Positions 421 to 54,725 of a stretch of DNA of 64,000 nucleotides are shown here, in pieces. The notes under the pieces are model-generated. The model did no database searches. It saw only the letters and a list, made by a program, of their open reading frames with translations, and was not told the DNA's origin. The DNA comes from Octopus vulgaris (lineage: Eukaryota). Made by a program: the position numbers and the translations under genes. The DNA is taken from the NCBI GenBank assembly GCA_951406725.2, contig OX597821.1:14880001-14944000 (forward strand). The letters run 5' to 3'. Position 1 is the stretch's first letter; the number at the start of each line of letters is the position of its first letter.

Positions 421-1059
421 TTTTACTAAGTAAAACAGATTTAGCCTGAGGCGAAACAATATCACTACCGGCGACAACAACAGCAGCAACAACCTTAAGT
501 TTTCCCTGAGTTATTTTTATTTGTATATCATTATTAGCCAAAGCAGTATGTCGTAAGTGAAGCTCCTGCCAATGCATGCAACACACCAAGTAAGAAGCGA
601 GAGAGAATCATGAGGTTCTTGTAGAATATCGCACGCAAGGAAACCTGGAAAATTAGCATATTTAAAACGATAAATTACTGAAGTTACTTATCAGACGCCA
701 TGCACATAGTAAAAAAGTGGATAAGATAAGGCTAATATATTCATGGCCTTGGTTTACCTGATCTGCATAAGATAATTATGTGAAAATAAATCAAGCTAAT
801 CTATAGGGTGATGGGGTGCTATTGGCGAAATCACAGATCGCTCAAGTAAAGTTGAGAAAGTACAGAAATAAATGAAATAATAAATATGTACTTTAAACAT
901 TCTCTTCATTGATTCTTCTGCTTGTTTTAAGAGATACGCAACCGGGAATTAATGCGATAATTCACACTCCTTGTAAGATTAAAGCCCATTGTTCAAGGCG
1001 ACGTCACTCGGTTACGTCACCGCTAATTTTCTTTCAATATTCGATTGTATTCTGTTTTT

Positions 1060-1392
1060 ATCTTTTTATCTTTTACTTGTTTCAGTCATGTGACTGTGGC
1101 CATGCTGGCGCACCGCCTTTGGTCGAGCAAATCGACCCCCAGGACTTATTCTTTGTAAGCCTGGTACTTATTCTATCGGTCTCTTTTTGCCGAACTACTA
1201 AGTTACGGGGACGTAAAAACAGCAGCATCGGTTGTCAAGCGATGTTGGTGGGACAAACACAGACGCACAAACATATATACACACACACACATATATATAT
1301 ATGTACATATATACGACGGGCTTCTTTCAATTTCCGTCTACCAAATCCACTCACAAGGCTTTGGTCGGCCCGAGGCTATAGTAGAAGACACT
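1060..1392 (-). mobile_element. SINE family A copy, 5' head missing
   Basis: Reverse complement of the tail and body of the full copy at 12218-12627; similarity stops at 'agaagacact'. Confidence 0.9.
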
Positions 1393-1399
1393 TTTTTAT

Positions 1400-1632
1400 A
1401 CGCCTGGGTCAAGGAAATTACCTCAATCCGTTTTGTACGGAAGAATTGGGTATGAATCCCAGTACAGCTGTTATTTACAACAGTTATGTTCGTGAGTTGT
1501 GTGCGAAGGACCTGCTCCACAACCCAGTTCAGATAGTTGGTCAAGGAAAGATCGCTGAAATAGACGAGACAGTGTACTCAAAACGCAAGTACAACCGATG
1601 GAGGAAGTTACTTGAACAGTGGGGTCTTTGGA
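1400..1632 (+). pseudogene. Merlin/ISXO2(IS1016)-like transposase fragment
   Basis: Translation YVRELCAKDLLHNPVQIVGQGKIAEIDETVYSKRKYNRWRKLLEQWGLW fits the Merlin motif GGxGxxVEIDESxFxKRKYNRGRxxxxQWVFG. Confidence 0.8.
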
Positions 1633-1795
1633 GGAGTTTTTTTTTCTTGGAGATGGTAGCAAGTTATATAAGGGTCGTTTGGCTGCTATTTCTTATTGCG
1701 TTAAGTGACAACTTAGAGACATACTTCATGCCTCTTATAAAATACCGAACGAGATACGCAAAAATTTCAGTGAATTAAAATATTAAAAGCTTAAC

Positions 1796-3783
1796 CCGGA
1801 CCGGTCTTAGGAGGTGCGGAGGGAATTTCCGATTTCTGTGTAAAAAAATTATTTGGGGTATATAAGGAGATGAGATTAGTTGATATACGGATGTGTGTGA
1901 TTGTGTATAAAAAAATGCATTACTCAAAGAAATTCCAACTTTGACTTTCACATTTTATTTACAAGCTCATAATAATATAATATAAGATAATATGAAATGA
2001 TAGAATATTAAATGTCCATTCTGACTGAACTAGTACTTTCATGTATTAAGCTATGCAATCTTCAGGTTCATATAGTAGAAGTGACAGTTATGTTTTACAA
2101 TTTACATCTGTAGTGAGATGGCTAAAATGTGTGCCTTAAATACATTTGTATAGGCTCCAGAATGTTAACTTTTGCAAACTGTATTCTGACTAATCAGTGT
2201 GTGGCTTTACTAAATTGCTTAAGTTGATTGGTGTTTGGTTTAAGCGTCACGGTTTGTTGAACATGCCAAGAGACCTGTATTTTGACCCTTGCCAAAGCAG
2301 TAGTTGTTTGGCTATTTTAAGAAATGTTGTAAACAATATTTCCCAGAGATTTTTACATTTCAATTATCATCATCGTCATTATCATCGCCTTTATTATTGC
2401 AGTCGTTGATGGTTGGTAGTGGTAGGAGTAGCTGTAGTAATAGGACTTTAAATCCTAAATAAGATTATTTTCACTAACTTTTCTCTTGACTTAGCTAATA
2501 TTTTCCTGCTATCGTCATCACGAGAACCTTTAGTATTGTTGTTGCTGTTAGTGGTAGTGGTCGTAGCAGTAGAAACAGTATCTTTAAGTATTATTATTAA
2601 TTGTCTATTTAGCTTGGATTGGAATTTATTAAAGTTCTTTTCTCTGATTTTTCTCTCGATTTCACTTGAGCTGTGTAGTTTGTGGAATGGAAATATTATA
2701 AATATTTTTCGACCACCTGTTGCTAGACGGTGACTCAAAGGTATCTGACGAACATCTGGATCTCTAAGTTGCTCTCGGTGCACACGTAAACGTTCTGATA
2801 GTGCATTTCCAGTTTGACCCACATATAGCTCTTCACAATACGGGCATTTGATGCAGTAAATCAAATTTCTGCTTTTGCAGTTCGAATTTGCTTTTGTGAA
2901 TATTTTCCCGGTTTTTGTGTTCATATATTGGCCGGTATGCATGAATTGGCATGTGCCACATCGGCTGTCATTGCATTTAGATACAGTAATTGATTGGTCT
3001 TTGTTGCTAAGGTCAATATTTACCTTTGTTAATAATTTTTTCAAGTTTTTAGGTTGTCGTTTACTAAGAATCACAGCTCGAACTGTGATTATCTTTTAAT
3101 TCATTACTTTGAGCAATGATTTGTAGGTTTGATTTGGCAACGTTGAAGATATTCTGGTGACATGTGTTGTATGTCACTATAAATGGTATGACTTGTTCTT
3201 GTTTTCCTCTTCTTTGGGTTGTCCTTAGTTGTTGTATGGGTACTTTTATAGCCCACTGTATGCCATTTTCTGTTAGTAGAGACGGGTGTTTTTGCTTGAG
3301 CAAACATTCTCATAGTTCTGTTAGGCGTTTGTTGCTGATATTCGCATCTTCTACAATGGTACAAATTCTTCTGGCTAAAAATTTTCCCCAAAATTAAACA
3401 TATACAAAGTATATTTATAGCACATGCACTTAAACAGCCACACCCGTACTCTCTCTCACACACACACAAATATTTTACCCAAACACGCCCATAAACATTC
3501 CCATACATTCACATACACACACGTACACATACAATTGACCTTTACACTAAAAATACAAGCAAGGCTGACCCAAGCAATTTTGGATGAATGGGTTTATCTT
3601 TTGGTATCTTATGTCGCTAAAGCGTAGAAAGTATGTTTTTTTCTTTTAAGGAGTATGTTTATGTAGATTTTTTTTAAACTTCAAGGAGACTACCTTCATG
3701 AAATGTCGCAGTATAGGATGTGGCCTCATTGAGCGCGGGGCCCGACTGGGAGCAATTGTCCCATCTGGCTTAAGGCGGCCCTG
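1796..3783 (+). mobile_element. Possible old hAT-like DNA transposon relic, interrupted by a Penelope fragment
   Basis: 3' end 'ggcttaaggcggccctg' resembles hAT termini and weakly matches 'ccggaccggtcttagg' at 1796; 3560-3630 loosely resembles a hAT C-terminus. Weak evidence. Confidence 0.3.
2598..3380 (-). pseudogene. Penelope-like retroelement fragment: RT thumb, Cys-rich linker, GIY-YIG endonuclease (Neptune-like)
   Basis: Translations LARRICTIVED..., PFIVTYN, RQPKNLKKLL, CNDSRCGTC, NCKSRNLIYCIKCPYCEELYVGQTGNALSERLRVH and ERKIREKNFNKFQSKLN; contains a stop and a frameshift. Confidence 0.9.
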
Positions 3784-4067
3784 GGCCTAGCGATAATTGT
3801 TACCATTTCTCAAAGAAAAGAGTTGATAATAAATATACATACGTACGTATGTATGCATGTATATTTGTATGTACGACTCTCTCAGCTTCTTATTATTTGT
3901 TTGTCTGTCTGTCTGTCTACGTATGTGATGTATATGAAATTAAATCTTTAAATGTGTAAATGTAAATATGATTAAATATACATGTAAGTTCTTCCTTTTC
4001 GGCGTATAAGAAATTTAGAAATAAATATATGTGCTACAGCCTGTATTGCATAATACACACAGAGAAA

Positions 4068-4141
<74 letters not shown>
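4068..4141. repeat. (CA)n microsatellite
   Basis: Perfect CA run. Confidence 0.98.
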
Positions 4142-4145
<4 letters not shown>

Positions 4146-4261
4146 GGATGTCTTCTATTATAGCCTCGGGCTGACCAAAGCTTTCTGAGTGGATTTGGTA
4201 CATGGAAACTAAAAGAAGCTTCTGTGTGTTTGAGTATACACGTCTGAATATATATATATAC

Positions 4262-4437
4262 ATACATATGAGAGGGATGACCAGTATGTGGACAACCGTT
4301 ACGCTAGAAGTAGATCCACTATGGTCTTATCACTAAGAAATGTTCTCAAGAAAAATTTAGCAAACATCAGAACGTTAAACTGATGTTAAATTGATGTTAA
4401 TTAAATTGATATCCAATTTCTCACCCTCAATTTAAAT

Positions 4438-4440
<3 letters not shown>
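4262..4440. mobile_element. TA-flanked short element, same family as 47823-48215
   Basis: 'gggatgaccagtatgtggacaaccgttacgctagaagtagatccactatggtcttatcactaag' aligns to 47843-47905; 'aaattgat...caatttctcaccctc' aligns to 48180-48205. Confidence 0.75.
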
Positions 4441-4483
<43 letters not shown>

Positions 4484-4659
4484 CTAATAACTGCCATAGA
4501 TGTATTTATGTGCTACTATTAGTTTCATGTGCTGTGATTGTTTTATAACACGCCTGGTGTCCCAGTACAATCACTAGACACCGACCACATGGCATAACAA
4601 ACCAAAATTTAAAATCAAATATTCACAGATGAAAGAGTTAATGTTTTCATTTCGTTATG

Positions 4660-4737
<78 letters not shown>

Positions 4738-5450
4738 ACATTCTGAGTGTCTTGGTGTTTGTGTTTGTATTTGTACTACTGCATCACTTGACAATCAATT
4801 TTGGCTAATTTACGTCCCCATAGCTTAGAGGCTCGGCAAAAGAGACTGATAGAATAAGTACCACGCTTTTAAGAAGGAAATATGCATTGGTATCGATTTG
4901 TTCGAACAACCCTTCAAAGGTGTCTCAGTAGAGCTGCAGTCGATTGACAGATACAAGTATAAGATTAATAAATCACAATATATAATGAAATACACATTAA
5001 AATGTGTCTACTTTAGAAAATAAATACACAGTACTTATATTATGACATTAAAAAAATTAATCATCAAAAAGAGGAGATATTAAAAATCATTAAATTTTTA
5101 GGTGACCAGTTCTGAAATCAGCAGACCGATTAATTTACAAAGTAGGTAAAAAAAAAAAAAAGAACATACTATTGATTTTTAACTAGTTTAACTGCTGTAT
5201 TTGCGTTTAGAGCTGGAGTTCCAAATTGCGTTCAATTTTGATTTTAATTTCTTATGTTATCTATTTATTTTATATAAAACTGTATTGTTCTTATCGTTTC
5301 GTTTAATCTATTTCTCAATTTTCATATGGTCCCAGGTTCCGTCCCACTATATGAGATTTTAGAGAAAGTGTTTGCTGCTGTAGCCCTGAGGCGACCAATA
5401 CCTTGTGAGTGGATTTCGTTAACGGGAACTAAAAGAAGCCCATCATGTGC

Positions 5451-5451
<1 letters not shown>

Positions 5452-5523
<72 letters not shown>

Positions 5524-5525
5524 CA
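5452..5525. repeat. (TATC)n microsatellite after a SINE A fragment (5325-5450)
   Basis: Direct reading. Confidence 0.95.
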
Positions 5526-6136
5526 TCTCTTTCTCTCTGTATATATGTCTGTATGTATACAAGCCCACACAAGTAAATGTTCGTACGTAGAATATAAACT
5601 TACTTATACGTAAGCAAAGGCAGATGTAAATTTTTCTACGTTATGCCAACTCCTGCTAAATTACTTTGTGTATATATACACATGAAAATATATACATATA
5701 TACCGCACACAAAAATGCTTATATTTATATATATACACTCGTACACAGACACATATACATAGATAGACTTATATACATAAAAAATCTTTAATGAGAAGTG
5801 GTTCACATAAACGAGGCAAATTTCGTGTATATATCTATAGAGTGATTGGGATATATTTACTATGAGGCGCTTGATTGAAATGAGTCAATAACGCAAGAAA
5901 CAACAGACAAACCATAAACATAAAATTTTAAATCAAATATACGCAAATGAAAGCCTACATATGTCAATAGCAATTATTATTGCAGTGAAGTGATGCTTTA
6001 CGTTCAGAAGTTTCAACATAGAATGAGGTATTTATTATTCTCAAAAGTTTTTTTAAAAAATGAAAAAAAAGGTAGAGGGAAGATTGTATTCGTAAACAGT
6101 TTGAGTGCTTGTTTCTCTGGAGAGAATGATGTAGAT

Positions 6137-6179
6137 GCCTCTGATGAGACCCCAATAAGGTTCGAAAATCGATTAAGGT
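6137..6179 (+). ncRNA. Minimal type-I hammerhead ribozyme motif
   Basis: GCCT-CTGATGA-GACCccaataaGGTTC-GAAA-ATCGAT-TA-AGGT: canonical core, stem I GCCT/AGGT, palindromic stem III AATCGATT. Confidence 0.7.
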
Positions 6180-7607
6180 TGTTCATAATTTTATCAGTCT
6201 GCTGAGAAATGGCTAAAATTTGCTGCTTATAATTATACCATATGTTACATACATACATTCATATATGCATACATGCATACATACATACATACATAGTTTT
6301 TCTATTTAGTGTTATTTCACTATTTTATATAAAACCGTATAGATAGATGGATACATAGATAGATAGATAGATAGATAGGCACATGATGGGCTTCTTTCAG
6401 TTCCCGTTAACGAAATACATACATACATACATACATACATACATACATACATACATGCATACATAATGGTGGCAGTTGTGATCAGTTCAATAATCGGACG
6501 TTTGTAATTACTGCTTATATGAAGGCAACATATTTCTACACAAATGTTATAAACATTACATATATTGCAGCATATCTATATTAACGATATATCTTAACAC
6601 ATTTATGTAAACACAGCATTCTAACGATACACAAACAAAGAAATAAGTCAACATTGTAAAACAGTTTACAAAAAAGATCAACACCACTCAACGTGTACGT
6701 TTAAATGCAATTGTAGCATTAAAAACAACCAGCAAGAAAAGATTACCCAAGTTGTGAACAACGTAAAATTTTATTCTGACAAAATTTTGTCGAACCTTTT
6801 AAGGAAGATCGTTGTCTATTTTTGAAAAAAAAAAAAAAAAATATCAGTGAATAAACAACAAATTTCATAGCCAAACGTGTAAGTCACCTTCGACCAAATC
6901 ATAACTACAATCACTGCATACAATGAACCTACGGTGCTAAAGATTTATATGAAGCATAAATACAATCTGAACCCCAAAATTTCGGTTTTATGCAAAGGCT
7001 AAAATATTTGCGGAACTCAAAACATCCCAAATTAGATTTTCCCCCTAAAACATTTAAATCATTAGATGTAAGTTGATACATCTAAAGGAAGCAGTTGATT
7101 CTAAGCCAGCCATTGAAGATAACCATCCCATTTCCAATGATGGATAGACGCAATGGTCAGCTAAATCTAGCAGTAAGCAACACACCAACAATGTGAGCTG
7201 AATTCCATACCTGTACTGTACAAACAGAACACCAAAAACTTGTGAACGCCTTACTAGACTACTTAGTCTAGGATAGTGTTTCAACAATTTGAATGACAAG
7301 CCACACAACACCAACATAAGTAAAACACCCCAGTAAATTAGAATTAGAAGCAATGAACGAAATAGCAAGCAAATATCTGAAGGTTACACAGTCCAGAGGT
7401 ATGAAAGCAACATACGAAACCGTTAACCTTTTGATTTATGTCACAGCAATTATATTAGTGAGGGTCTTTGCATGTACGTGAGACATGGTGCTTCCACATT
7501 TTTGAGCCTGTAACCAACATTGGCACTTGATATCTTGCTCTGTCTTGTCTCTGGATCATGTCAGAAGGATGGACAAGGTTTGTGAGGTGTTATGCAAGCC
7601 TTATTGG

Positions 7608-8049
7608 ACCTAAATTTTATTTCAGAATTGATGGGGCTCATATGAAGACTCATATTGTCACTGAATGCAACAACTGATGAAGGGTTCTTTCTCTGTGTTT
7701 ACTTGTCCTGTTATCCATTTTTCTCTCGTTTGTTTACGTATTTCATGTTATTTGCACCGTTGGTGACGTCCTGTAATCATATGTATATTATATATTATTT
7801 AGTATTTAACTGAACGCGACGCATTCATTACCAAGCAAGTTTATCTTCACCTTTTTGATGCGACTCTCTACTCTATACTGTTCTATTCCCCTTTCCTTCT
7901 CTAATCTATTTTCTCCTCTCCTTCCTTCACCGTTTTCTACGCCTCTCTATCGCTCTCTCTTCCTCTTTCCCCCTCTCTCTCTTTCGATGCACATATGCGA
8001 CCATCGTCCATCTTTCTTTTCCTGCACAGACGTTTAAAAGAACGTAGTG

Positions 8050-8087
<38 letters not shown>

Positions 8088-8460
8088 TCTTTTCTCATTA
8101 AAAAAATGTTTCTGCCAGCGTTCTCTATTTCCCACTCATTCTGGTCTAACGACCCAATATGCTTATTTTCGTTCGGTTTCATTGTATGTCACCACTGTCA
8201 TTTTTGTTCCCAACTTTGACCCTCTATAAATCCTAAATTTTATTCTAGAATCTATGGGAGCAACTGTCTTTCAATACTCATATTGTCGTTAAATGCTCGA
8301 AAGGAGGAATAGATTACACAGTCGACAACTGATGAAGGGTCCTTTCTCTGTGCTTACTTGTCCTGTTCTCGTTGTTCACGTACTTCATTCTTTTTCTGTC
8401 TCGTTTGTTTACTTTTTCATGTTATTTTGCACCGTTTGTGATGTCCTGTACCCATATATG
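7608..8460 (+). repeat. Diverged direct repeat pair (~7608-7785 and ~8232-8460), probable retroelement 3' termini
   Basis: Shared 'cctaaattttatt', 'actcatattgtc', 'caactgatgaaggg..ctttctctgtg.ttacttgtcctg' and 'ttcatgttatt(t)tgcaccgtt.gtga.gtcctgta'; both run into TA-rich sequence. Confidence 0.75.
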
Positions 8461-8542
8461 TATGTATGTATGAATGTATATATATACATATATATATACA
8501 CACATTATACATTATTTATTATATATATATTATGTATTACTT

Positions 8543-8592
<50 letters not shown>

Positions 8593-8946
8593 TATATAAA
8601 CACATATGTATACACACTCTTGTTCATACAATATCCCTCTAGGCTACCGGGAGGAGTAGGATTGCTAGAATCTCGGCAGAACAAAAGTAACACCTGTCAA
8701 AAGAACGGATGAACCCAGCGTGCGGCAATCACTCCGAAGCAAAGATTAAAGTAAGTGAGTGTTCACTTGGAAAATTTCCAGAAGTGAAATTCATAGCAAG
8801 TTGCATCCTGTCTAGTAAAACGAGAGTAAAGCTGTTCGAAAATCTCAAACACGTTTCCATGAGGTTTAATGTGTCACATGACAGTTACATATTTTGTGTA
8901 TTTAGTTTGACATCTGTGATACGCTGAGGCATAAGACATATAGAGA

Positions 8947-9409
8947 ATACCAAACGAGTTCCCTATGGATAATGTATTTATTACAACGAGTGGCTTGTAA
9001 ACGTATCTAACGAGCGAAAGCGAGTTAGATACGTTTACAAGCCACGAATTGTAATAAATACGGTATCCACAGGGAATGGGTTTGGTATTTTATTTATTAC
9101 ACACAAATAAACGACCATATTTTATTAACCCAATAACTAAATTCTTCACGTTTAGTTGTAACTTATGAATGACAAAAGTAGTGCCGTCACCGTGACCTCG
9201 GGTTATCACCATGGATTGACCAATCAGAAGCAGCGCTGTCACCGTGACCTCGGGTCATCACCATCAATTGACCAATCAGAAGCAGCGCTGTCACCATGAC
9301 CTCGGGTCATCACCATGGATTGACCAATCAGAAGCAGCGCTCGCAGTATCTGACATATGTTAGATACCAAAAATATCTCAAAGTGTTCTCACTCACATGT
9401 GTGTAATAA
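8947..9409. mobile_element. Non-autonomous element: ~140 bp palindrome plus three CCAAT tandem units (Crypton-like architecture, inferred)
   Basis: Hairpin 8947-9089 centred on 'cgagcgaaagcgag'; inverted pair 'ttattacacaca' (~9094) and 'tgtgtgtaataa' (~9398). Confidence 0.6.
9186..9341 (+). repeat. 3 x 52 bp tandem repeat, each unit with TTGACCAATCAG
   Basis: Unit gtcaccgtgacctcgggtcatcaccatggattgaccaatcagaagcagcgct starts at 9186, 9238 and 9290. Confidence 0.95.
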
Positions 9410-9549
9410 GTTATGTTAAGACAAACGCCAGTCCTCATATATGTTTTGGTGTGTGACTGTACGCATCGAAATGTTTGGGTATTGCATCCTAACATGACTC
9501 AGAACTTGCTCATTTTACGCAGTGTACATGCCGGATTATGTGTATCATT

Positions 9550-9955
9550 TATCTTTTACTTGTTTCAGTCATTAGACTGCGGCCATACTGCGCCAGCACC
9601 TTGAGAAAGTTTAATTTAACGACCCCTAATATTTATTCTGCCGCTCGCCAAACTGCTAAAGTTACGGGTTAAAGAAACAGCGGTTGGTGGTGGGGAACAA
9701 ACACAGATACACACACACACCCATACAAACACACACACAATAGCACACACAATACACACACTCACACACACATAGGCGTACACACACACACACATGAGAT
9801 GGGCTTCTTTTCCTTTCCGTCTACTAAATCTACTCACAAGGCTTTGGCCGGCCCGAGTCTATAGCGGAAGACATTTGCCAAGTTTTCTACGCTATAACTC
9901 TGAACCCAGATTCACGCGGTTTTGGAAGCAGCCTTCTTACCACACAGTCACATCT
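9550..9955 (-). mobile_element. SINE family A, diverged copy
   Basis: Matches tail, body and head of 12218-12627 in reverse, with many substitutions. Confidence 0.8.
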
Positions 9956-10054
9956 GTGCTCTGTGTGTGTGTATGTAAATATATATATATATGTGTGAGT
10001 GTCTGTGTGTCTGTGCGTGTGTATGTATGTGTGATTGTATGTGTGTGTAAATAT

Positions 10055-10103
<49 letters not shown>

Positions 10104-10156
10104 CACACACATACAATCACACAGAACGTACACACGCACAGACACACAGACACTCT

Positions 10157-10199
<43 letters not shown>

Positions 10200-10395
10200 G
10201 TACATACTCATAAATGTGTGTTCAGTTATACGTATGCAAATGTATGTAATTTCAAATATTTATACACGTACAAAGGTGCATTAGTAAATGCACAGATACA
10301 TGCATGCATACATAAACACAGAAGTACATACATGCAGTTTACCTACACTATCTCAAATACGTATGTTGAAAGCAAACACACACACACATTAATGG

Positions 10396-10778
10396 TTGGA
10401 AGCACTCCGTCGGTTACGACGACGAGGGTTCCGGTTGATCCGATGAACGGAACAGCCTGCTCGTGAAATTAACGTGTAAGTGGCTGAGCACTCCACAGAC
10501 ACGTGTACCCTTAACGTAGTTCTCGGGGATATTCAGCGTGACACAGAGAGTGACAAGGCCGGCCCTTTGAAATACAGGTACAACAGAAACAGGAAGTAAG
10601 AGTGAGAGAAAGTTGTGGCGAAAGAGTACAGCAGGGATCGCCACCATCCCCTGCCAGAGCCTCGTGGAGCTTTAGGTGTTTTCGCTCAATAAACACTCAC
10701 AACGCCCGGTCTGGGAATCGAAACCGCGATCCTACGACCGCGAGTCCGCTGCCCTAACCACTGGGCCATTGCACCTCT
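10396..10778 (-). mobile_element. SINE head B + tail 1
   Basis: tRNA-like head with A box TGGCCCAGTGG and B box GGTTTCGATTCC; TSD 'cacacacattaat' on both sides; near-identical to 41496-41879. Confidence 0.95.
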
Positions 10779-11254
10779 CACACACATTAATACAAACTCG
10801 TACACACGAGTGACGAGCACTCTCCCTAGATAAGTGTCACTTCACACACACAAACACACACGCGCGCGCACCCACCCACCACATCCACACAAATAAATAT
10901 ATGTATTCACTAAATAGTTTATGTAGCCATAAAGCCCAAGAGCAACTTAATTTAAACAGAAGAGCCTCGCTTAGAAACTGGCTTCAATTCTTCAAAGGAA
11001 AAAAAAAAGGCCAATGAAATGCATGAATTTAGCCTCTGAAATGCATGAATAACACACATGCACCAATGAAATGAATAACACACATACACCAATGAAATGC
11101 ATGAATAACACACATGCACACCCAGAAACACACACATATACACTCTCGCAGCCACACATGTACGTTTACACACACACACACATACAGTATCATTTACACT
11201 TATATAGTGTGCATAATGTATATAAAAATATTTTATGGTTTATATATGAATATA

Positions 11255-11480
<226 letters not shown>

Positions 11481-12217
11481 ACATGTTATATAGAATTCGT
11501 ATATTATATAATGTACACGTTTTACATATATAATACGTTATATACGTGCGCGTGTGTGTAAACACACACACACGTACATACACTTTCACACACTTTCACA
11601 CACTCTCACACACAAAACAACTTCACAAAATACAGAATAGCACAGACAGCATATAGTTAGATATGGATACACAGACATATACATACATGCATATATGCAC
11701 ACACACACATACACACACACACATATATACAAACATATATACAAACATATATACAAACATATATACAAACACACACATATATACAAACATATATACAAAC
11801 ATATATACACACACACATGCAAACAAATAAACTTAATACCGACTTTAGTTTCTTCCCTACAACATGAACATTTTTACGAGAAAATAAGCAGATTATTCTA
11901 GCAGCATAAACTTAATCTGACAATTTCCTTTTTAGTTATTTTTCATCATAATCTAAACATTCATTTGTCTGTTCAAATGTCTTTGTTAATGTAATCCTTT
12001 TGTTAGAAAAGGCGCCGTTGCCGTCGTGTCCGCCTTCGACGTCGCCATTTTCGTCCCTTTTCGTTTTGCTCCTCCTCATCATTTTGCAGATGGACTTACC
12101 TCATCTGTTTCAATGATAATTCTAGAGAAAATATATGATCGACGAAATAAGTATCCCTGTACTGATTTTACTGCGATAATATAACTGGATTAATTTATTG
12201 ACTTATATCCATGTCTA

Positions 12218-12380
12218 GGCGCAGGAGTGGCTGTGTGGTAAGTAGCTTGCCAACCAACCACATGGTTCCGGGTTCAGTCCCACTGCGTGGCTTCTTGGGC
12301 AAGTGTCTTCTGCTATAGCCCCGGGCCGACCAATGCCTTGTGAGTGGATTTGGTAGACGGAAACTGAAAGAAGCCTGTCG

Positions 12381-12415
<35 letters not shown>

Positions 12416-12627
12416 TTGTGTGTCTGTGTTTGTTCCCCTAGCATTGCTTGACAACCAATGCTGGTGTGTTTACGTCCCCGTCACTTAGCGGTTCGGCAAA
12501 AAGAGACCGATAGAACAAGTACTGAGCTTACAAAAGTATAAGTCCCGGGGTCGTGTTGCTCGATTAAAGGTGTTGCTCCAGCATGGCCGCAGTCAAATGA
12601 CTGAAACAAGTAAAAGAGTAAAAGAGT
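12218..12627 (+). mobile_element. SINE family A, full length (tRNA head, CORE-like segment, internal TA/TG microsatellite, (TAAAAGAG) tail)
   Basis: A/B boxes TGGCTGTGTGG and GGTTCAGTCCC; 'cttgggcaagtgtctt' resembles the CORE domain; short TSD atgtct. Confidence 0.95.
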
Positions 12628-12884
12628 ATGTCTCGTTTGTTCCTAGTTGAATAAGCGATACTTTTGTACAATTGTTCGCGGGAAGAACAGGTGTTTCAGC
12701 TGGTGCAGGTTAAAATTTGAAAAGGTGAACATTTCAGTAAAAAGCAAAAACAAAACACTCGACATGGTGTAAATTTCAACCCCCTTGGTATAGGTATCAC
12801 AAATTACATGTAATAATATAAACTTGTTAATAATGATAAATTTCGAGAAAAAGACGGACCTAAAATATATAAATATTAACTTTA

Positions 12885-13072
12885 AATTTTGACACAAGGC
12901 CAGAAATTTTGGGGTATAGAGGGGTAAGGTGATTACTGGTACTTATTTTATCGACTCTGAAAGATGAAGGACAAGGTCGACCTCACCTTAATTTGAACAC
13001 AGAACATGGAGACAGATGAAATACACTAAGCATTTATCCATTCGTCATAACGATTCTGCCAGCTCGCCGCAT
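12885..13072 (-). mobile_element. SINE family C, old subfamily
   Basis: 'ggtacttattttatcgac...aagatgaa...gtcgacctc...atttgaac...cgattctgccagctcgccgc' shared with 25591-25824. Confidence 0.85.
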
Positions 13073-13324
13073 TGAAATATATAAATATTGTTACACTTAT
13101 ACATATAGATGTAGTGCATTGATAAGCTTGATGCTTACACACGAACCAATGCATAAACACGTAATAAACAGATAATAGACCAGTTTATAACGTATTTATA
13201 CTTATATGCCATATTGAAGAGAAATGCAAATATACGTAAAGAAGGATATAAAGCAAGATGTGAGAAAGAGTCTGGAATGTAAAAAAATTCGTAATAGTTC
13301 AGATGTAGATAGATACACTCCCAG

Positions 13325-13358
<34 letters not shown>

Positions 13359-14014
13359 GCGCGCAGACGTATAAATATATGTGCGCGAGCGTGTGCAATG
13401 TGTGTAAATCTTTATTTAACTCGTTCGTGTGCACATGGACGTAGAATGACCTTCGCTGTGGAATTTATCTCGAGAGAAAAAATTCCCATAGGCAGTGTGT
13501 GTGACATCTCATCAATGGATTATGAATGACATCATGTGTTTCTGCGTCGTTATGCTCCATCAGCTACGGGCACCGAAATCCGTCGTTCATAGCCCACAAG
13601 AAACAGGTGTTCTTAATTTTAAACAGTAAATGGTACATTTGCCAATGTATGCCAAACATACACAAGCTTGATACAACTAGAGGCGCACGAAGTAGTGTTG
13701 ATTGAAATATGAGTGTTACAATTATATTTAACACGTTCGTGTACACTCGGATATGGAAAGACCTTCACTGCGGAATTTGTCCTCGAGGAGAAGTGAAAAG
13801 ATACCACTAGGCTATGAATGATGCTATCGGACCCGAGGACACATGCATTTCTGCGTCGTAACATTTCTTAAGTGATGGATTTCGAATCGGTCTTTCATAG
13901 CTCATTAAGAAAAATCCATTTTTATATTTAAACAGCAAACAGGACATTTGTTGACTTGTGCAAAGCTTGGTTAAACACACGCGTATATAAAACCATATGG
14001 AGACATTTATATCT

Positions 14015-15698: not shown

Positions 15699-15739
15699 CA
15701 AAGTTGAGTTGTGGGGTATCGCACGAGTGGAATTATATA

Positions 15740-16324
15740 CGAAAGAAGGTTTGAAAATGCAATTTAAAAGATGTTTATTTACTTAACCGGTTTCACTCTT
15801 TGGAAAAAGATTGTCAAAAGTAACATAGAATATTATGAATTCAAAAAAGTTTTTTACATAATTGCCACATTGAATATTATGAATTCAAAAAAGTTTTTTT
15901 TACATAATTGCCACATTACATGTATATATATAGTCTTTGGTAACAGGGACATGCTAAGGGCATAAAGAAGTTCAACAGTGTGATGAGAATATCTAAAAAA
16001 AAGGGGCAGAAAAGAATAAAACAAATATATTATTGGAAGTTTTGGTTGCGTTAATTGCCCCTTTTTTTCAAATATTCTCATCACACTGTTGAACTTCTTT
16101 ATGCCCTTAACATGTCCCTGTTACCAAAGACTATATATATACATGTAATGTGGCAATTATGTAAAAAAAACTTTTTTGAATTCATAATATTCAATGTTGC
16201 AATTATGTAAAAAACTTTTTTGAATTCATAATATTCAATGTTACTTTTGACAATCTTTTTCCAAAGAGTGAAACCGGTTAAGTAAATAAACATCTTTTAA
16301 ATTGCATTTTCAAACCTTCTTTCG
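15740..16324. repeat. Near-perfect inverted repeat, ~269 bp arms and ~47 nt spacer, between (TA)n tracts
   Basis: 15740-16008 is the reverse complement of 16056-16324; the ORF track shows identical 64-aa ORFs on opposite strands. Confidence 0.97.
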
Positions 16325-16358
<34 letters not shown>

Positions 16359-16360
<2 letters not shown>

Positions 16361-16525
16361 CGGGAAGTTTTATGAAAATAAACAAAAGACGAAGGCAGGT
16401 GAAGTACAAACAAACAATTGTATTAGTACGGCGCTCAGGAATATAAATAAAACAAGTCTTTTACGTTTCGAGCCTACTCTCTTCAACAGAAAGATACACA
16501 GAAAAGAAACAAGGAGAGAAAAATG

Positions 16526-16837: not shown

Positions 16838-16839
16838 TT

Positions 16840-16897
<58 letters not shown>

Positions 16898-16903
<6 letters not shown>

Positions 16904-17330
16904 GTTGTATACTGTCAATCTAACAAGAACGTGACAGTAGGGGGTACACCACCGCTGTATAGCCCTAGGAAGCATCGAACGCCTCCTGATAGCTTTGACA
17001 CATTTTTTCCCTGTGTCCTTATATACATATACGAAGGGGAGACAAACACACCCGGCCGCCGGAACTGCATCTAGGGACACCGTGTTTCAGGATCATTGTC
17101 CCTCATCGGCCTAGAGTAGCAGACACCGGTCAGCTGGTGATATTTGCCTCGACTTCGTAATTGTATATATGTAAACTCAGTGAAGTCTATTCACTGATTA
17201 TCAAAATAAGAAATATTGAATTTCTAAATCTCTCGTAGAGACATGTACGGTGGTGGGGTGATAGAATGGTTGTGTACTGTCAATCTAACAAGAACGTGAC
17301 AGTAGGGGGTACACCACCGCTATATAGCCC
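16898..17330 (-). mobile_element. Element with ~68 bp direct terminal repeats (16898-16966, 17263-17331) enclosing a hammerhead
   Basis: 'agaatggttgt.tactgtcaatctaacaagaacgtgacagtagggggtacaccaccgct.tatagccct' occurs twice, 365 bp apart. Confidence 0.85.
17070..17115 (-). ncRNA. Type-I hammerhead ribozyme motif with GUC site
   Basis: Minus strand: TCTAGG-CCGATGA-GGGAcaatgaTCCT-GAAA-CACGGTG-TC-CCTAGA; 6-bp stem I and a U4C core variant. Confidence 0.8.
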
Positions 17331-18014
17331 TTACGTAATACCCTGATATTGAGATCTCCGTTGACGGGTTTCTGGTATTAAAGCGTTTAACACTTACGAT
17401 ATGCAAATTAGTAATTCCATTTCTCTGTAGCTACTGGGTTTGTTGAGTATATAAACATATTAGCTGCCTATCTCCCCCGCTATTTCACAAGATGATGTTG
17501 ATACCATTGATGAGAACCCATAAGATTATAAACTCGATTAACACTGCTCATGGTTTTTTTCCCCCATCTCATGAGAAATAGTTAAATTTACCCTGTTTAT
17601 ATATCTACTTTATAGGTTACATACATACCTGTGTTTCTTTGTGTGTTCAAATGTGTGTAAATTGCTGAATAGTATCTCAAGGCAACTCAATCAATTTTGC
17701 CAGCAAGACAATAGCTAGCTCACAAAGTCACCAAAGAATTATTGAAGATTAATAGTAACAAAGCCACGACTAAAATATTTAAAGGCGAACTTGTCTACCG
17801 ATCTAAATTATCTTCATTATTAATTACTGTTTTACATTTGAAAGATGCGAGAGCTTCAATTAAGTATAAAAGACATAAATGTTTGAAACATCTAATTCTG
17901 TTACGTATTGAATATTAATTATATTTTGTCTTTCTCGTCTAAGATTTTCGTGTCAAGAACATGAACGTGTGTTTGTGTGGCTGGTGGTAGCGGTGTTGTG
18001 TGTCTGCCTTTCTT

Positions 18015-19991: not shown

Positions 19992-20504
19992 GTTAATAAT
20001 TTATAGTATGCAAATTTGTAGCTCCAGTTTTTTGAAGCTACTGCTTGGAAACTTGTTTTTCTGGGATTATTCGATGACGTAGACACCTATGATTAGATTT
20101 CAGCAAGCGTCAAAAATCGAATAAGACCGGTCATTATAATTAACTTTTGGCATTAATAATGCTTTCGTTGCTAATAATTAACTTTTAATAAGTCTGCCGG
20201 CTATTTGCGACATCAGTATCTGAAAAAAAAAAGCTGATATCCTACATATGATAGGAATAAGATCTGACTGGCATGCGGTGCTTCCCTCTGATTAAGTCCA
20301 ATAGATCGAAATCACGTGATATGAGAATTCTGGCGCCCGCATCAGGTGAATTCAGTCTGCTACGATCTATGTGTGTGTTTATATGCACCAAGGGCCTATA
20401 TGAGGAGATCTCTCAATGCCAAAACACAGTATTCGGTGTTCTAAACAGGCATTCATGCTAAGCCGATATAATAATTACTTTTGGTATTAATACTAATTCC
20501 TGGG

Positions 20505-27630: not shown

Positions 27631-27826
27631 GCCATGATAGATTGTTAGCCACTACACACATATTTTTCTTTCCTTTTTTCTCTCTTTGTTTTTTCTGTGT
27701 CCCTTTCTGTAGAAGAGCGTAGGCTCGAAACGTAAAAGACTTTTTTCTATTCCTGAGCGTTATACTAATACACCTGTTTGTTTCGTACACCACCTGTCTT
27801 CGTCTTTTGTTTTTTTCGTAAACTCT

Positions 27827-27830
<4 letters not shown>
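27629..27830 (+). mobile_element. TA-flanked ~200 bp element with hammerhead-like fold at 27703-27738
   Basis: CTTT-CTGTAGAA-GAGC-gtag-GCTC-GAAA-CG-TA-AAAG; (TA)n on both sides. Confidence 0.8.
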
Positions 27831-27880
<50 letters not shown>

Positions 27881-36340: not shown

Positions 36341-37251
36341 AATTACAAACTCCATTTCTCGTATCCTGAAGACCAACTAGAAGCAAAAGAAATCTAACAC
36401 AGTAATTTTACCAGAACCATCTCCACTAAATTCTCATTTATATCAGTGTTACCACTAACTACAATCTCTAATACCAACATTACTAACATCAGAATAACGA
36501 ATACTACCTCATCATCGCTACTACATTTTCACCATTGCCTTAACTTTTTCTATCACTATATAACTGAGAGCAGTAATTGCAGTAGCAACGACAACAACAT
36601 CAAACACATCAAGAAATGCATCGTAAAGAGCAATATTACTAAGAGCATCAACATCGTTGGCAAGATAATAAATACTCCGCAAGTGCACACAATGAACAAA
36701 ATACACACCCCCCAGCGCTCCATGCACCTTCCTTGTCGCCCCTCCAAAAATATATACAGTACATTTCTATCGATTTTACTTAGAGCATCTGTAACCACTT
36801 TACTGTCTCTCTCTCTCTCACTCATTCTCTCCACCTTTCCTCTCATCTATCTCTCACTCACACCTTTTCTCTCTGTAATAACTACTCTCCCACACTTTCA
36901 TTCCACTTTCTCTCTCTCTGTTCAATTACCATTTGACTCCCTTATTTGGCTTCTGTCCTTGAAATATGAAGTTTTATCTGATGGTATAACTCGACAGACA
37001 ACCCCAAGGAAGGACGCATACAGAGTAGCTCCACTTTCAAGTACTGAAATGTTGCTGTTTGTTTAGAGTAGAGCTGTTTGTGAGCGTATCTGCTGATGGA
37101 ATGTGGTGGTGGTGGTGGAGGTGTGAAGGAGGGAATAATAGAAAAAAGCAAATCACAAAAAAGTCAAAATAAAATTTACAAGGAAAAGCAACACAAGAAT
37201 ACAGCCGAGAAACGATAAAAATTAGGCAGCACAAGAACGTGACATTTTCTT

Positions 37252-37667
37252 ATTTCTTTATTGCCCACAAGGTGCCAAACATAGAGGGGACAAACAAGGA
37301 CAAACAAAGGGATCAAGTCGATTACATCAACCCCAGTGCATAACTGGTACTTAATTTATCGATCCCGAAAGGATGAAAGGCAAAGTCGACCTCGGTGGAA
37401 TTTGATCTCAGAACGTAACGGCAGACTAAATACCTATTTCTTTATTACCCACAAGAGGCTAAGCACAGAGAGGACAAACAAGGACAGACAAAGGGAGTAA
37501 GTCGATTACATCGACCCCAGTGCGTAACTGGTACTTATTTAATCGACCCCGAAAGGATGACAGGCAAAGTCGACCTCGGCGGAATTTGAACTCAGAACGT
37601 AACGGCAGACGAAAAACCACATAGCATTTCGCCCGGCGCGCTAACGATTCTGCCAGGTCGCCGCCTT
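37252..37667 (-). mobile_element. SINE family C dimer
   Basis: Two units enclosed by one 17-bp TSD gaacgtgacattttctt (37235-37251, 37670-37686). Confidence 0.93.
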
Positions 37668-43029: not shown

Positions 43030-43340
43030 TGATAGTCATTTCCCATTCATCGAGTTGTTACCAACCTTCTTTTTCCGCTCTCCTGTCTTTGAAAACCTGT
43101 CCACGCTGTCTAAGACTTCCGGCCTTTCAGCATGTTTACTTCGTGAAAACCAGTCGCGTTTTTTTTCCCTCCGTCCGCCCGCCTCGGGATCTTTCTTTCT
43201 CTTATGCTTCCGACGAAGAGCTCCGCTCGAAACGTCATACCCTCCTTCTTCCCTTTTTCCTGAGCGCCTAATAATAATACTTTAATTGTTCCACCTCCTT
43301 GTGTTGTTGTTTTTTCTGTTTTCTCGTTTGGATTAACCTT
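43030..43340 (+). mobile_element. Penelope-like 3' terminus with hammerhead-like motif at 43210-43236
   Basis: CCGACGAA-GAGC-tcc-GCTC-GAAACGTC followed by 'tcctgagcg...taata' as in 27750-27770; ends in (TA)n. Confidence 0.7.
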
Positions 43341-54537: not shown

Positions 54538-54725
54538 ATGTTTTTTGTCTATCGTTTTTTGTTGTTGTTGTGTCTTCTTTTTTCTCTTTCAAACTTTTCT
54601 GTCGAAGAACGTAGGCTCCAAACTTCAAAGACTTTTCCATTCTTCACGAGCCTGAAACTAAAACACCTGCATGTTGTTCCTCACTTGTCTTCGTCTTTTG
54701 TTTTCTGTAAATCTGAGCTATATTT
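54538..54725 (+). mobile_element. Diverged copy of the 27629-27830 family
   Basis: 'ctgtcgaagaacgtaggctccaaacttcaaagac...tgtcttcgtcttttgttt'. Confidence 0.75.

What the first reader, a model, noticed from the sequence alone, without database searches (positions are those of the whole stretch)
16898..17330. 365-bp-period direct repeat bracketing a GUC hammerhead (retrozyme-like unit)
Seen: two ~68 bp copies differing at about 2 positions, each containing a TACTGTCA...TGACAGTA hairpin, flank the best-formed hammerhead in the window; the minus-strand 3' end joins (TA)n. Known: animal non-LTR retrozymes are tandem units of a few hundred bp with one hammerhead each, copied through circular RNA, and Penelope insertions show partial tandem ends. 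Inference: reverse transcription went slightly more than once around a ~365-nt circular or tandem template.
Basis: partly seen in the sequence, partly recalled or inferred. Interest (0 to 1): 0.7.

Follow-up and report, generated by a model that had tools for sequence, protein, structure and literature searches.

The report
Penelope-mobilised hammerhead retrozyme copy
This is one 436-base insertion of an abundant, non-coding 365-base repeat that carries a predicted self-cutting RNA motif and was likely copied from RNA by a Penelope-type jumping gene's enzyme; it looks like a known kind of animal element (a retrozyme), and its likely fixed copying start and predicted slow ribozyme make it a handy test of how such elements move.

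Summary
Two 71-bp copies (16896-16966, 17261-17331; 2 differences; period 365) bracket a minus-strand type I hammerhead (17115-17070; helices 6/4/2-3 bp; GUC). The 3' end joins (TA)30.

Public contigs show a high-copy family in 5 coded organisms. Divergent copies span every junction of the 365-nt cycle, and their variants keep the minus-strand rod. Coverage is uneven, not randomly permuted: it jumps 5-10x at ~17205 and has no step at the cleavage site. This copy ends in the unit's most A+C-rich loop. That fits Penelope-type internal priming plus 5' truncation on an uncut or re-ligated, longer-than-unit RNA.

Verdict: a non-LTR-retrozyme-type element, likely mobilised by Penelope-like elements, probably in an octopod (weak evidence). 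Tandem arrays, cleavage, expression and circles were not shown, and circle versus linear multimer stays open. New member of a known kind; interest moderate.

The parts
16839..16898 (.). (TA)n tract, the insertion target at the element's minus-strand 3' end; last 3 nt also match the element (17261-17263)
16896..17331 (-). whole insertion, 436 bp = 1.19 units
   Evidence: family depth falls to single-copy level beyond about 17331-17340
16897..17261 (-). one 365-nt period; 44.7% GC; no stop-free frame over 75 codons even when cycled; folds as a circle at -128.4 kcal/mol, z -7.0 (plus strand -116.2, z -4.9)
16896..16966 (-). downstream copy of the 71-nt redundancy, with hairpin 16910-16939
17261..17331 (-). 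upstream copy of the 71-nt redundancy (5'-truncated second unit, pLTR-like), with hairpin 17275-17304
17070..17115 (-). type I hammerhead: helix I 6 bp, core CCGAUGA (U4C at 17108), helix II 4 bp with 6-nt loop, GAAA, helix III 2-3 bp, GUC, predicted cut 17076/17075
17020..17168 (-). imperfect rod extending helix I, hammerhead at its tip; 3-nt UAC bulge next to helix I
   Evidence: -67.2 kcal/mol, z -6.2, 0 of 200 shuffles as stable; variants in other copies mostly keep pairs
17249..17273 (-). most A+C-rich 25-mer of the unit (84%), largely unpaired within a stem-loop; the insertion's 3' end (16898 = 17263) falls in it; inferred reverse-transcription start
   Evidence: compare PMC11167929
17205..17260 (-). 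tail-like segment (~57 nt) between this copy's end point and a second, common end point of the family at ~17205
   Evidence: depth step 4.7x, 6.7x, 10.3x, 6.0x in the 4 runs; 4 listed loose ends of 3 different sequences join at 17204-17207
17137..17204 (-). least-covered segment of the cycle (5' arm of the rod and a small hairpin); still spanned, with the 17204/17205 junction, by divergent copies
   Evidence: tables 2, 3, 8 (records 12, 13, 21, 23, 31)

Best explanation
This is a roughly 1%-diverged genomic copy of an abundant non-coding 365-nt hammerhead repeat (non-LTR retrozyme type) that was likely inserted by a Penelope-like element's endonuclease and reverse transcriptase, which likely nicked a (TA)n tract, primed inside the RNA's A+C-rich loop and copied 1.19 turns of a likely circular template. 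Steps: (1) inferred: tandem master copies elsewhere are transcribed on the minus strand; (2) predicted: the hammerhead, slowed by U4C and a non-G-C 10.1-11.1 pair and helped by pairing of two units, cuts multimers to monomers, which a host ligase closes; (3) shown: the family's variants preserve the rod on this strand, so the RNA fold is under selection; (4) inferred: a PLE protein binds the stem-loop around 17205-17331 and starts cDNA at one of two preferred sites (16898/17263 or ~17205); (5) shown as a depth pattern, inferred as cause: most cDNAs stop early (5' truncation), a few pass one full unit as here. This locus holds one hammerhead only, so it is probably a dead-end monomer.
For: Size, GC, single type I hammerhead with 6/4/2-bp helices and self-paired fold match animal retrozymes (PMC7229834; PMC4209133). 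High copy: 2959 and 2455 contigs laid in two DNA runs (these include the neighbouring repeat), summed depth 31,000-791,000 over the unit against 52-60 on the unique flank in X1; 555-14,000x raw, 18-456x if divided by the largest possible contig overlap (the tool says depth is no copy number). Held by 20 of 24 listed runs, 12 studies, 5 organism codes. Cycle closed in other copies: joint 17283->16945 running to 16978 in X10 and X12, and records with 10-14 differences across 17204/17205. Of 34 listed in-unit variants 17 are at paired sites: 12 keep, 5 break (P about 0.002); G-U toggles 12 against A-C toggles 2 (P about 0.006), favouring the minus strand. The only core position with a listed variant is the free position 7 (17105); 17102 is A-U in 99% of depth; a deletion at 17080 (13% in X4) makes the helix III loop palindromic. 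No depth step at the cut site (206k/209k in X1, 218k/175k in X4), so templates were mostly uncut or re-ligated there. End point in the most A+C-rich loop and a (TA)n target match PLE priming (PMC11167929; PMC8557442). One X4 contig runs to within 2 nt of the predicted cut site and restarts at 16903 (table 5c), a single hint that cleavage happens in vivo. A C-terminal GIY-YIG PLE fragment with the CX-CxxC linker lies at 2448-3095.
Against: No tandem array, circle, cleavage or transcript was shown; no genome is held and no listed contig spans the stretch. Uneven coverage is not what random entry on a circle gives. Only about a tenth to a fifth of the depth seen at the hammerhead continues into 17137-17170 in the DNA runs (7.5x and 5.4x drop), so many copies may belong to a longer element. 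U4C considerably lowers activity in vitro (PMC3088659), the catalytic fold costs 6 kcal/mol more than the circle's minimum and helix III has pairing probability near 0. For the anole PLE, uncut RNA is the main template (PMC11167929), and 8 of 9 Xenopus retrozyme dimers did not cleave. The tail-like segment is ~57 nt against 30-40 bp reported. The variant statistics use only the 34 in-unit rows shown (45 rows hidden), and linked variants are not independent. No sequence link to the window's PLE fragment was found.
Confidence: 0.5

Rival explanations
1. Same non-autonomous PLE-mobilised family, but the template is an uncut linear multimer read from tandem copies; the hammerhead is nearly vestigial and no circle is needed.
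For: U4C majority and weak helix III; no depth step at the cut site; the anole PLE uses unprocessed RNA and hammerhead mutants still insert; the two 71-nt copies differ at 2 sites, and depth over both versions of 16909/17274 is high, which could mean two different monomers.
Against: Core, helices I-II and the rod are conserved with change only at position 7 among listed rows; one contig stops at the cut site; mussel, coral and axolotl retrozymes of this size give abundant circles.
Confidence: 0.3
2. The sequence is mainly the pseudo-LTR of an autonomous Penelope-like element; most copies are its truncated ends and this locus is a gutted partial tandem, a by-product without its own RNA cycle.
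For: Partial tandem, tail-like extension, (TA)n target and 5'-truncation are PLE traits. A minor subfamily seen in X10 and X12 continues past 17204 into one shared long sequence (about 670 nt in an 817-nt contig) that could be an ORF-bearing body. Depth falls 5-7x beyond 17136 in DNA runs.
Against: The hammerhead is the canonical 6/4-bp form, not the minimal form typical of animal PLEs. The 17204/17205 junction and the rod's 5' arm occur in several divergent copies from 3 runs. Three different AT-rich sequences join at 17204-17207, as insertion flanks would. No ORF in the unit.
Confidence: 0.15
3. A short Pol III (SINE-like) transcript from about 17040 to the T4 run at 17206-17203 makes most copies; the hammerhead part is a passenger.
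For: One exact B-box (minus strand, 16980) and the only minus-strand T4 at 17206, next to the depth step; depth is 2-3x higher from 17034 leftwards than over the hammerhead.
Against: No minus-strand A-box with fewer than 2 mismatches; no tRNA; a one-base deletion in the B-box occurs in a subfamily that is common in X12; termination at T4 would not give a copy that runs through it, as this one does.
Confidence: 0.04
4. Chance motif plus local DNA duplication.
For: The window is rich in repeats and Rfam gives no hit.
Against: 0 of 20 shuffles give such a site; rod z -6.2; family-wide conservation and permuted copies.
Confidence: 0.01

Closest known systems
Animal non-LTR retrozymes, closest the Mytilus galloprovincialis (350-390 bp) and axolotl (330/350 bp) families (Cervera and de la Pena 2020, PMC7229834; Li et al. 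2026, 10.64898/2026.07.22.740005)
   Same: Unit of 365 bp, GC under 50%, one type I hammerhead, no ORF, highly self-paired RNA, many copies, PLEs in the same genome; single-hammerhead dispersed copies correspond to the 'monomers' of Li et al.
   Different: Core U4C in most copies and A/G10.1-U11.1; hammerhead at the tip of a 149-nt rod; copy ends cluster at PLE-type start sites. Arrays, cleavage and circles are shown there and not here. No cephalopod example in the text I read.
Endonuclease-bearing Penelope-like elements (Neptune/Poseidon), insertion structure and priming (PMC11167929, PMC3846280, PMC8557442, PMC4209133)
   Same: Partial tandem, optional tail, 5' truncation, AT-rich or (TA)n target, start in an AC-rich stem-loop downstream of the hammerhead, template uncut at the hammerhead.
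   Different: No RT/GIY-YIG ORF; canonical rather than minimal hammerhead; tail-like piece ~57 nt; a 3-nt target-template overlap where the anole PLE needs none; no inverted copy and no visible target duplication.
U4C hammerhead variants (viroid variant cited in Perreault et al. 2011, PMC3088659; CYGANGA descriptor in PMC13481778)
   Same: C at core position 4.
   Different: Here it appears to be the majority state of a high-copy animal genomic family, not a rare variant of an RNA replicon.
Plant LTR retrozymes (as summarised in 10.64898/2026.07.22.740005)
   Same: Non-coding element with direct terminal repeats and a hammerhead.
   Different: Those have type III hammerheads inside both LTRs, PBS/PPT and 4-bp target duplications; here one type I motif lies between the repeats.

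Membership tests
animal non-LTR retrozyme | repeat unit of about 150-450 bp, GC under 50% | tested here: met
   365 bp, 44.7% GC
animal non-LTR retrozyme | one type I hammerhead per unit | tested here: met
   17115-17070, minus strand, with U4C
animal non-LTR retrozyme | no protein-coding frame | tested here: met
   longest stop-free frame 75 codons in the cycled unit
animal non-LTR retrozyme | many genomic copies | tested here: met
   thousands of distinct contigs and depth far above the unique flank
animal non-LTR retrozyme | tandem arrays with two or more complete hammerheads | tested here: inconclusive
   1.19 units here; every junction crossed by other copies, but contigs are too short to show arrays; no genome
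animal non-LTR retrozyme | highly self-paired RNA | tested here: met
   64% paired, z -7.0 as a circle; variants keep the minus-strand pairs
animal non-LTR retrozyme | self-cleavage | not testable with these tools
   one contig ending at the predicted cut site is only a hint
animal non-LTR retrozyme | expressed as circular RNA | not testable with these tools
   only contigs of runs guessed to be RNA
animal non-LTR retrozyme | co-occurring autonomous PLE | tested here: inconclusive
   a PLE GIY-YIG fragment is in the window; the partner family was not identified
canonical metazoan type I hammerhead | core CUGANGA, GAAA, UH | tested here: not met
   position 4 is C (17108); all other core positions match; C4 is a known natural variant
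canonical metazoan type I hammerhead | helix I 6 bp and helix II 4 bp | tested here: met
   pair probabilities 0.81-1.0 in the circular fold
canonical metazoan type I hammerhead | helix III 1-2 bp with short palindromic loop | tested here: inconclusive
   2 bp plus 5-nt loop here; a one-base deletion in 13% of X4 depth gives a palindromic tetraloop
canonical metazoan type I hammerhead | G10.1-C11.1 pair | tested here: not met
   G-U here, A-U in 99% of family depth
canonical metazoan type I hammerhead | loop 1-loop 2 tertiary contact | tested here: inconclusive
   a 3-nt UAC bulge after helix I and a 6-nt loop 2 ending in A are present; likeness to the Schistosoma arrangement is recalled, not computed
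autonomous EN+ Penelope-like element | RT plus GIY-YIG ORF | tested here: not met
   none in the insertion
PLE-type insertion | partial tandem (pLTR) and 5' truncation | tested here: met
PLE-type insertion | optional 30-40 bp tail between two start sites | tested here: inconclusive
   ~57-nt segment between 17263 and ~17205, from depth steps and 4 loose ends
PLE-type insertion | start in an AC-rich stem-loop; AT-rich or (TA)n target | tested here: met
   one locus, about 7% chance for the AC-rich overlap (25 of 365)
PLE-type insertion | minimal hammerhead in the pLTR | tested here: not met
   canonical helices, against the minimal form described in PMC4209133
plant LTR retrozyme | type III hammerhead in each LTR, 4-bp target duplication | tested here: not met
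   single type I motif between the repeats; no duplication seen at the junctions
tRNA-derived SINE | A and B boxes, tRNA-like head | tested here: not met
   B-box match only; no good minus-strand A box; ARAGORN finds no tRNA

The most novel reading that the evidence does not exclude
A high-copy, probably cephalopod, circular-RNA retroelement whose genomic copies carry the Penelope-specific priming signature (internal start in an A+C-rich loop, two start sites, (TA)n targeting), giving mechanism-level evidence that PLE proteins copy retrozyme circles, and whose hammerhead has been detuned family-wide (U4C, A10.1-U11.1) so that the circle survives long enough to be copied.
Probability: 0.3. Interest if true: 0.7.

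Novelty: new member of a known kind. Interest (0 to 1): 0.47.

Why it matters
That Penelope-like elements mobilise animal retrozymes rests so far on co-occurrence and on pLTR homology in Xenopus (10.64898/2026.07.22.740005; PMC7229834), and why hammerheads in animal circles do not destroy them is left open in PMC7229834. A family with hundreds to thousands of recent copies, defined start points and a naturally weakened core lets both questions be tested: map copy ends in an assembly, measure cleavage with C4 against U4, and offer the RNA to a PLE protein. If the host is an octopod it would also extend retrozymes to cephalopods and reclassify a sizeable repeat family. The locus itself is most likely an inert copy.

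Tried and rejected
No own genome is held, so arrays could not be counted. Rfam: no hit at gathering score; at E<=10 only low-complexity chance matches, no hammerhead family. No third copy of the unit in the window. Hammerhead pattern scans: 0 in metagenome contigs, 0 in viral contigs; the window pattern had one letter too many and is void. A 20-nt pattern gave 1 metagenome locus, L001, with no further similarity to the window: chance. No RNA holder listed on record; X10 and X12 are only guessed to be RNA, so I draw nothing on expression from them. A short motif of the shared extension beyond 17204 is not in the window. Absence of the right flank in X4 (17477-17544, 17681-17900) is not used as evidence. 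Pfam on 145 of 238 filtered frames, plus 5, showed no host exon (one hit below cut-off), so intronic or intergenic position is unknown. The LINE RT search gave only a weak lineage hint: 3 hits of 120 listed carry a species name, the closest an octopod at 62%; ESM Atlas taxa were uninformative. An ORF start in the tail segment was rejected (stop after 6 codons, read). Pol III/SINE reading kept only as a minor rival. Earlier scan notes held nothing for this genome or sequence.

Full report
Observation. The window is AT-rich, microsatellite-dense animal DNA. Two 71-nt direct repeats lie at 16896-16966 and 17261-17331, 365 bp apart, differing at 2 sites, each with the stated hairpin. Between them the minus strand reads as a type I hammerhead: helix I 6 bp (17115-17110/17075-17070), core CCGAUGA (17109-17103), helix II 4 bp with a 6-nt loop, GAAA, helix III of 2-3 bp and GUC, cut predicted between 17076 and 17075. 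It is the only site in the window passing a strict descriptor; 20 of 20 shuffles gave none. The minus-strand 3' end joins (TA)30 with a 3-nt overlap; the other junction shows no target duplication. Rfam does not detect the motif.

Core position 4 is C, and pair 10.1-11.1 is G-U. Helix I continues, past a 3-nt bulge, into a 149-nt rod (17168-17020; -67.2 kcal/mol, z -6.2). One period folded as a circle gives -128.4 kcal/mol, z -7.0, against z -4.9 for the plus strand. Helices I and II are well populated, helix III is not, and forcing the catalytic fold costs 6 kcal/mol. No frame exceeds 75 codons.

The family. No genome is held. 20 of 24 listed public runs hold the stretch or part of it, from 12 studies and 5 coded organisms; none is on record as RNA. 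I laid 4 of the 24 on 16899-17900 at 80% likeness; all are contigs. In X1, 2959 contigs were laid and in X4 2455 (both counts include a neighbouring repeat). Summed depth over the unit in X1 is 31,000-791,000, against 52-60 on the unique right flank, which X1 holds with 0-1 differences. The tool warns that this is no copy number; the ratio is 555-14,000 raw and 18-456 at the most conservative overlap correction, so hundreds to thousands of copies is my inference. This copy differs from at least 98% of family depth at 3 sites (17050, 17102, 17259), about 1% with 17322.

The cycle is closed in other copies. In X10 and X12 a contig reads from 17204 through a variant of the repeat and on to 16978, past the end of the redundancy. 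Records with 10-14 differences cross the 17204/17205 junction (X10 records 12 and 13, X12 records 21 and 23, X4 record 31). So the 365-nt order is a family property and not a one-off duplication. Contigs are too short to show arrays.

Selection on the RNA. Of the 34 in-unit variant rows shown (45 rows of the table are hidden), 17 fall at paired sites: 12 keep the pair, 5 break it (P about 0.002 against transition-weighted expectation). Toggles involving G-U outnumber those involving A-C 12 to 2 (P about 0.006), which picks the minus strand. These rows are linked and selected, so the P values are optimistic. Within the core the only listed variant is the free position 7. The family has A-U at 10.1-11.1 (99%), and a deletion at 17080 (13% in X4) gives a palindromic helix III loop, the dimer-forming type (PMC4209133). 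No row appears for 17108. All 14 differences of X10 record 12 and all 3 of X12 record 20 are accounted for elsewhere, so both carry C4. Shown rows go down to about 40% share, so I infer C4 is the majority state. U4C is a known natural variant that lowers activity in vitro yet supports viroid infectivity (PMC3088659, passages and section 8; PMC13481778, passages).

How copies were made. Depth jumps 4.7x, 6.7x, 10.3x and 6.0x at ~17205 in the four runs and drops 7.5x and 5.4x beyond 17136 in the two DNA runs (1.4x in the other two). Four listed loose ends of three different AT-rich sequences join at 17204-17207, one ending in a TA run (519 loose-end rows are hidden). There is no step at the cut site. 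Some dips (17046-17060) reflect subfamily divergence, so the profile is only a guide. This copy's 3' end lies in the most A+C-rich 25-mer of the unit, unpaired inside a stem-loop (about 7% by chance). In the anole PLE, reverse transcription starts inside the RNA in an AC-rich stem-loop downstream of the hammerhead, at two sites whose spacing makes the genomic tail, on AT-rich targets, with uncut RNA as main template (PMC11167929, parts 1-2). (TA)n bias is reported for Neptune and Naiad PLEs and tied to the CX-CxxC linker (PMC8557442 and its preprint, passages). [quoted passage not shown] One X4 contig matches 17046-17073 (20 of 28 letters, compared by eye), then two G, then restarts at 16903: a cDNA that stopped within 2 nt of the predicted cut site and re-primed at the A+C-rich site. 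It is a single case chosen from 8 listed joints.

Mechanism and rivals. Best (0.5): a retrozyme cycle, with slow or dimer-dependent cleavage, ligation to a circle and PLE-type internal priming that here ran 1.19 turns. First rival (0.3): the same element copied from uncut linear multimers. Second (0.15): mostly ends of an autonomous PLE, this locus being a gutted partial tandem. A minor subfamily in X10 and X12 that continues about 670 nt past 17204 is the lead that would decide this, and I could not read it. A Pol III sub-transcript (0.04) and chance (0.01) fit poorly. The locus has one hammerhead and is probably a dead-end monomer in the sense of Li et al. (10.64898/2026.07.22.740005, parts 1-3 of 5).

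Comparison and novelty. It works like, and meets the testable sequence criteria of, animal non-LTR retrozymes (PMC7229834, parts 2-4 of 6 and passages); arrays, cleavage and circles are untested, so membership is probable, not proven. It is not an autonomous PLE, a plant LTR retrozyme or a tRNA SINE. Other papers seen: PMC6155905, PMC3846280, PMC8967140 (passages), PMC4209133 (parts 1-2 of 4), PMC13282606 (parts 1-2 of 3 and a supplement search), which lists 190 Penelope-like families covering 6.8% of the Octopus vulgaris genome and has no ribozyme term in its supplement. Nine searches found no cephalopod retrozyme and no animal family with U4C, but supplements, figures and subscription papers were out of reach. 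The host is probably an octopod; this rests on recalled repeat types and one named RT hit at 62% and is not established. Verdict: real; new member of a known kind, with two features worth testing; interest 0.47.

Noticed in passing
window 6126-6256, 17492-17628, 20052-20180 (+): A second hammerhead-bearing repeat family: intact CUGAUGA core with palindromic helix III loop at 6137-6179, decayed in the other two (65-72% alike). The copy right of the finding (about 17375-17646) shows back-joints of 209-210 nt in both DNA runs, suggesting another ~210-bp retrozyme-like unit.
   Followed up: partly
window 16355-16523 (-), 27675-27836 (+), 43192-43315 (+), 54574-54703 (+): A third family with minimal-hammerhead-like motifs (degenerate cores, one with C4 at 43210); the 16355 copy sits between two (TA)n tracts; likely PLE pLTR stubs.
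   Followed up: partly
window 15739-16325: 270-bp inverted repeat, 98% complementary, 47-nt spacer, with an internal 44-bp tandem, flanked by (TA)n on both sides; single in the window; MITE or palindromic PLE-type insertion.
   Followed up: no
window 2448-3095 (-): 3' fragment of a Penelope-like ORF (CX-CxxC linker plus GIY-YIG), 54-56% identical to four 685-724-aa PLE proteins.
   Followed up: partly
window 56257-58456 (-): Broken LINE with endonuclease (58109-58456) and RT (56257-57234) pieces.
   Followed up: partly
window 17204 (contigs of X10 and X12): A minor subfamily with a variant hairpin has the highest contig depth in X10 and is present in X12, and continues into a shared long sequence in two organisms: autonomous partner or orthologous insertion.
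   Followed up: partly
window 9186-9341 and 37251-37618: Tandem repeats of period 52 (3 copies) and 184 (2 copies).
   Followed up: no
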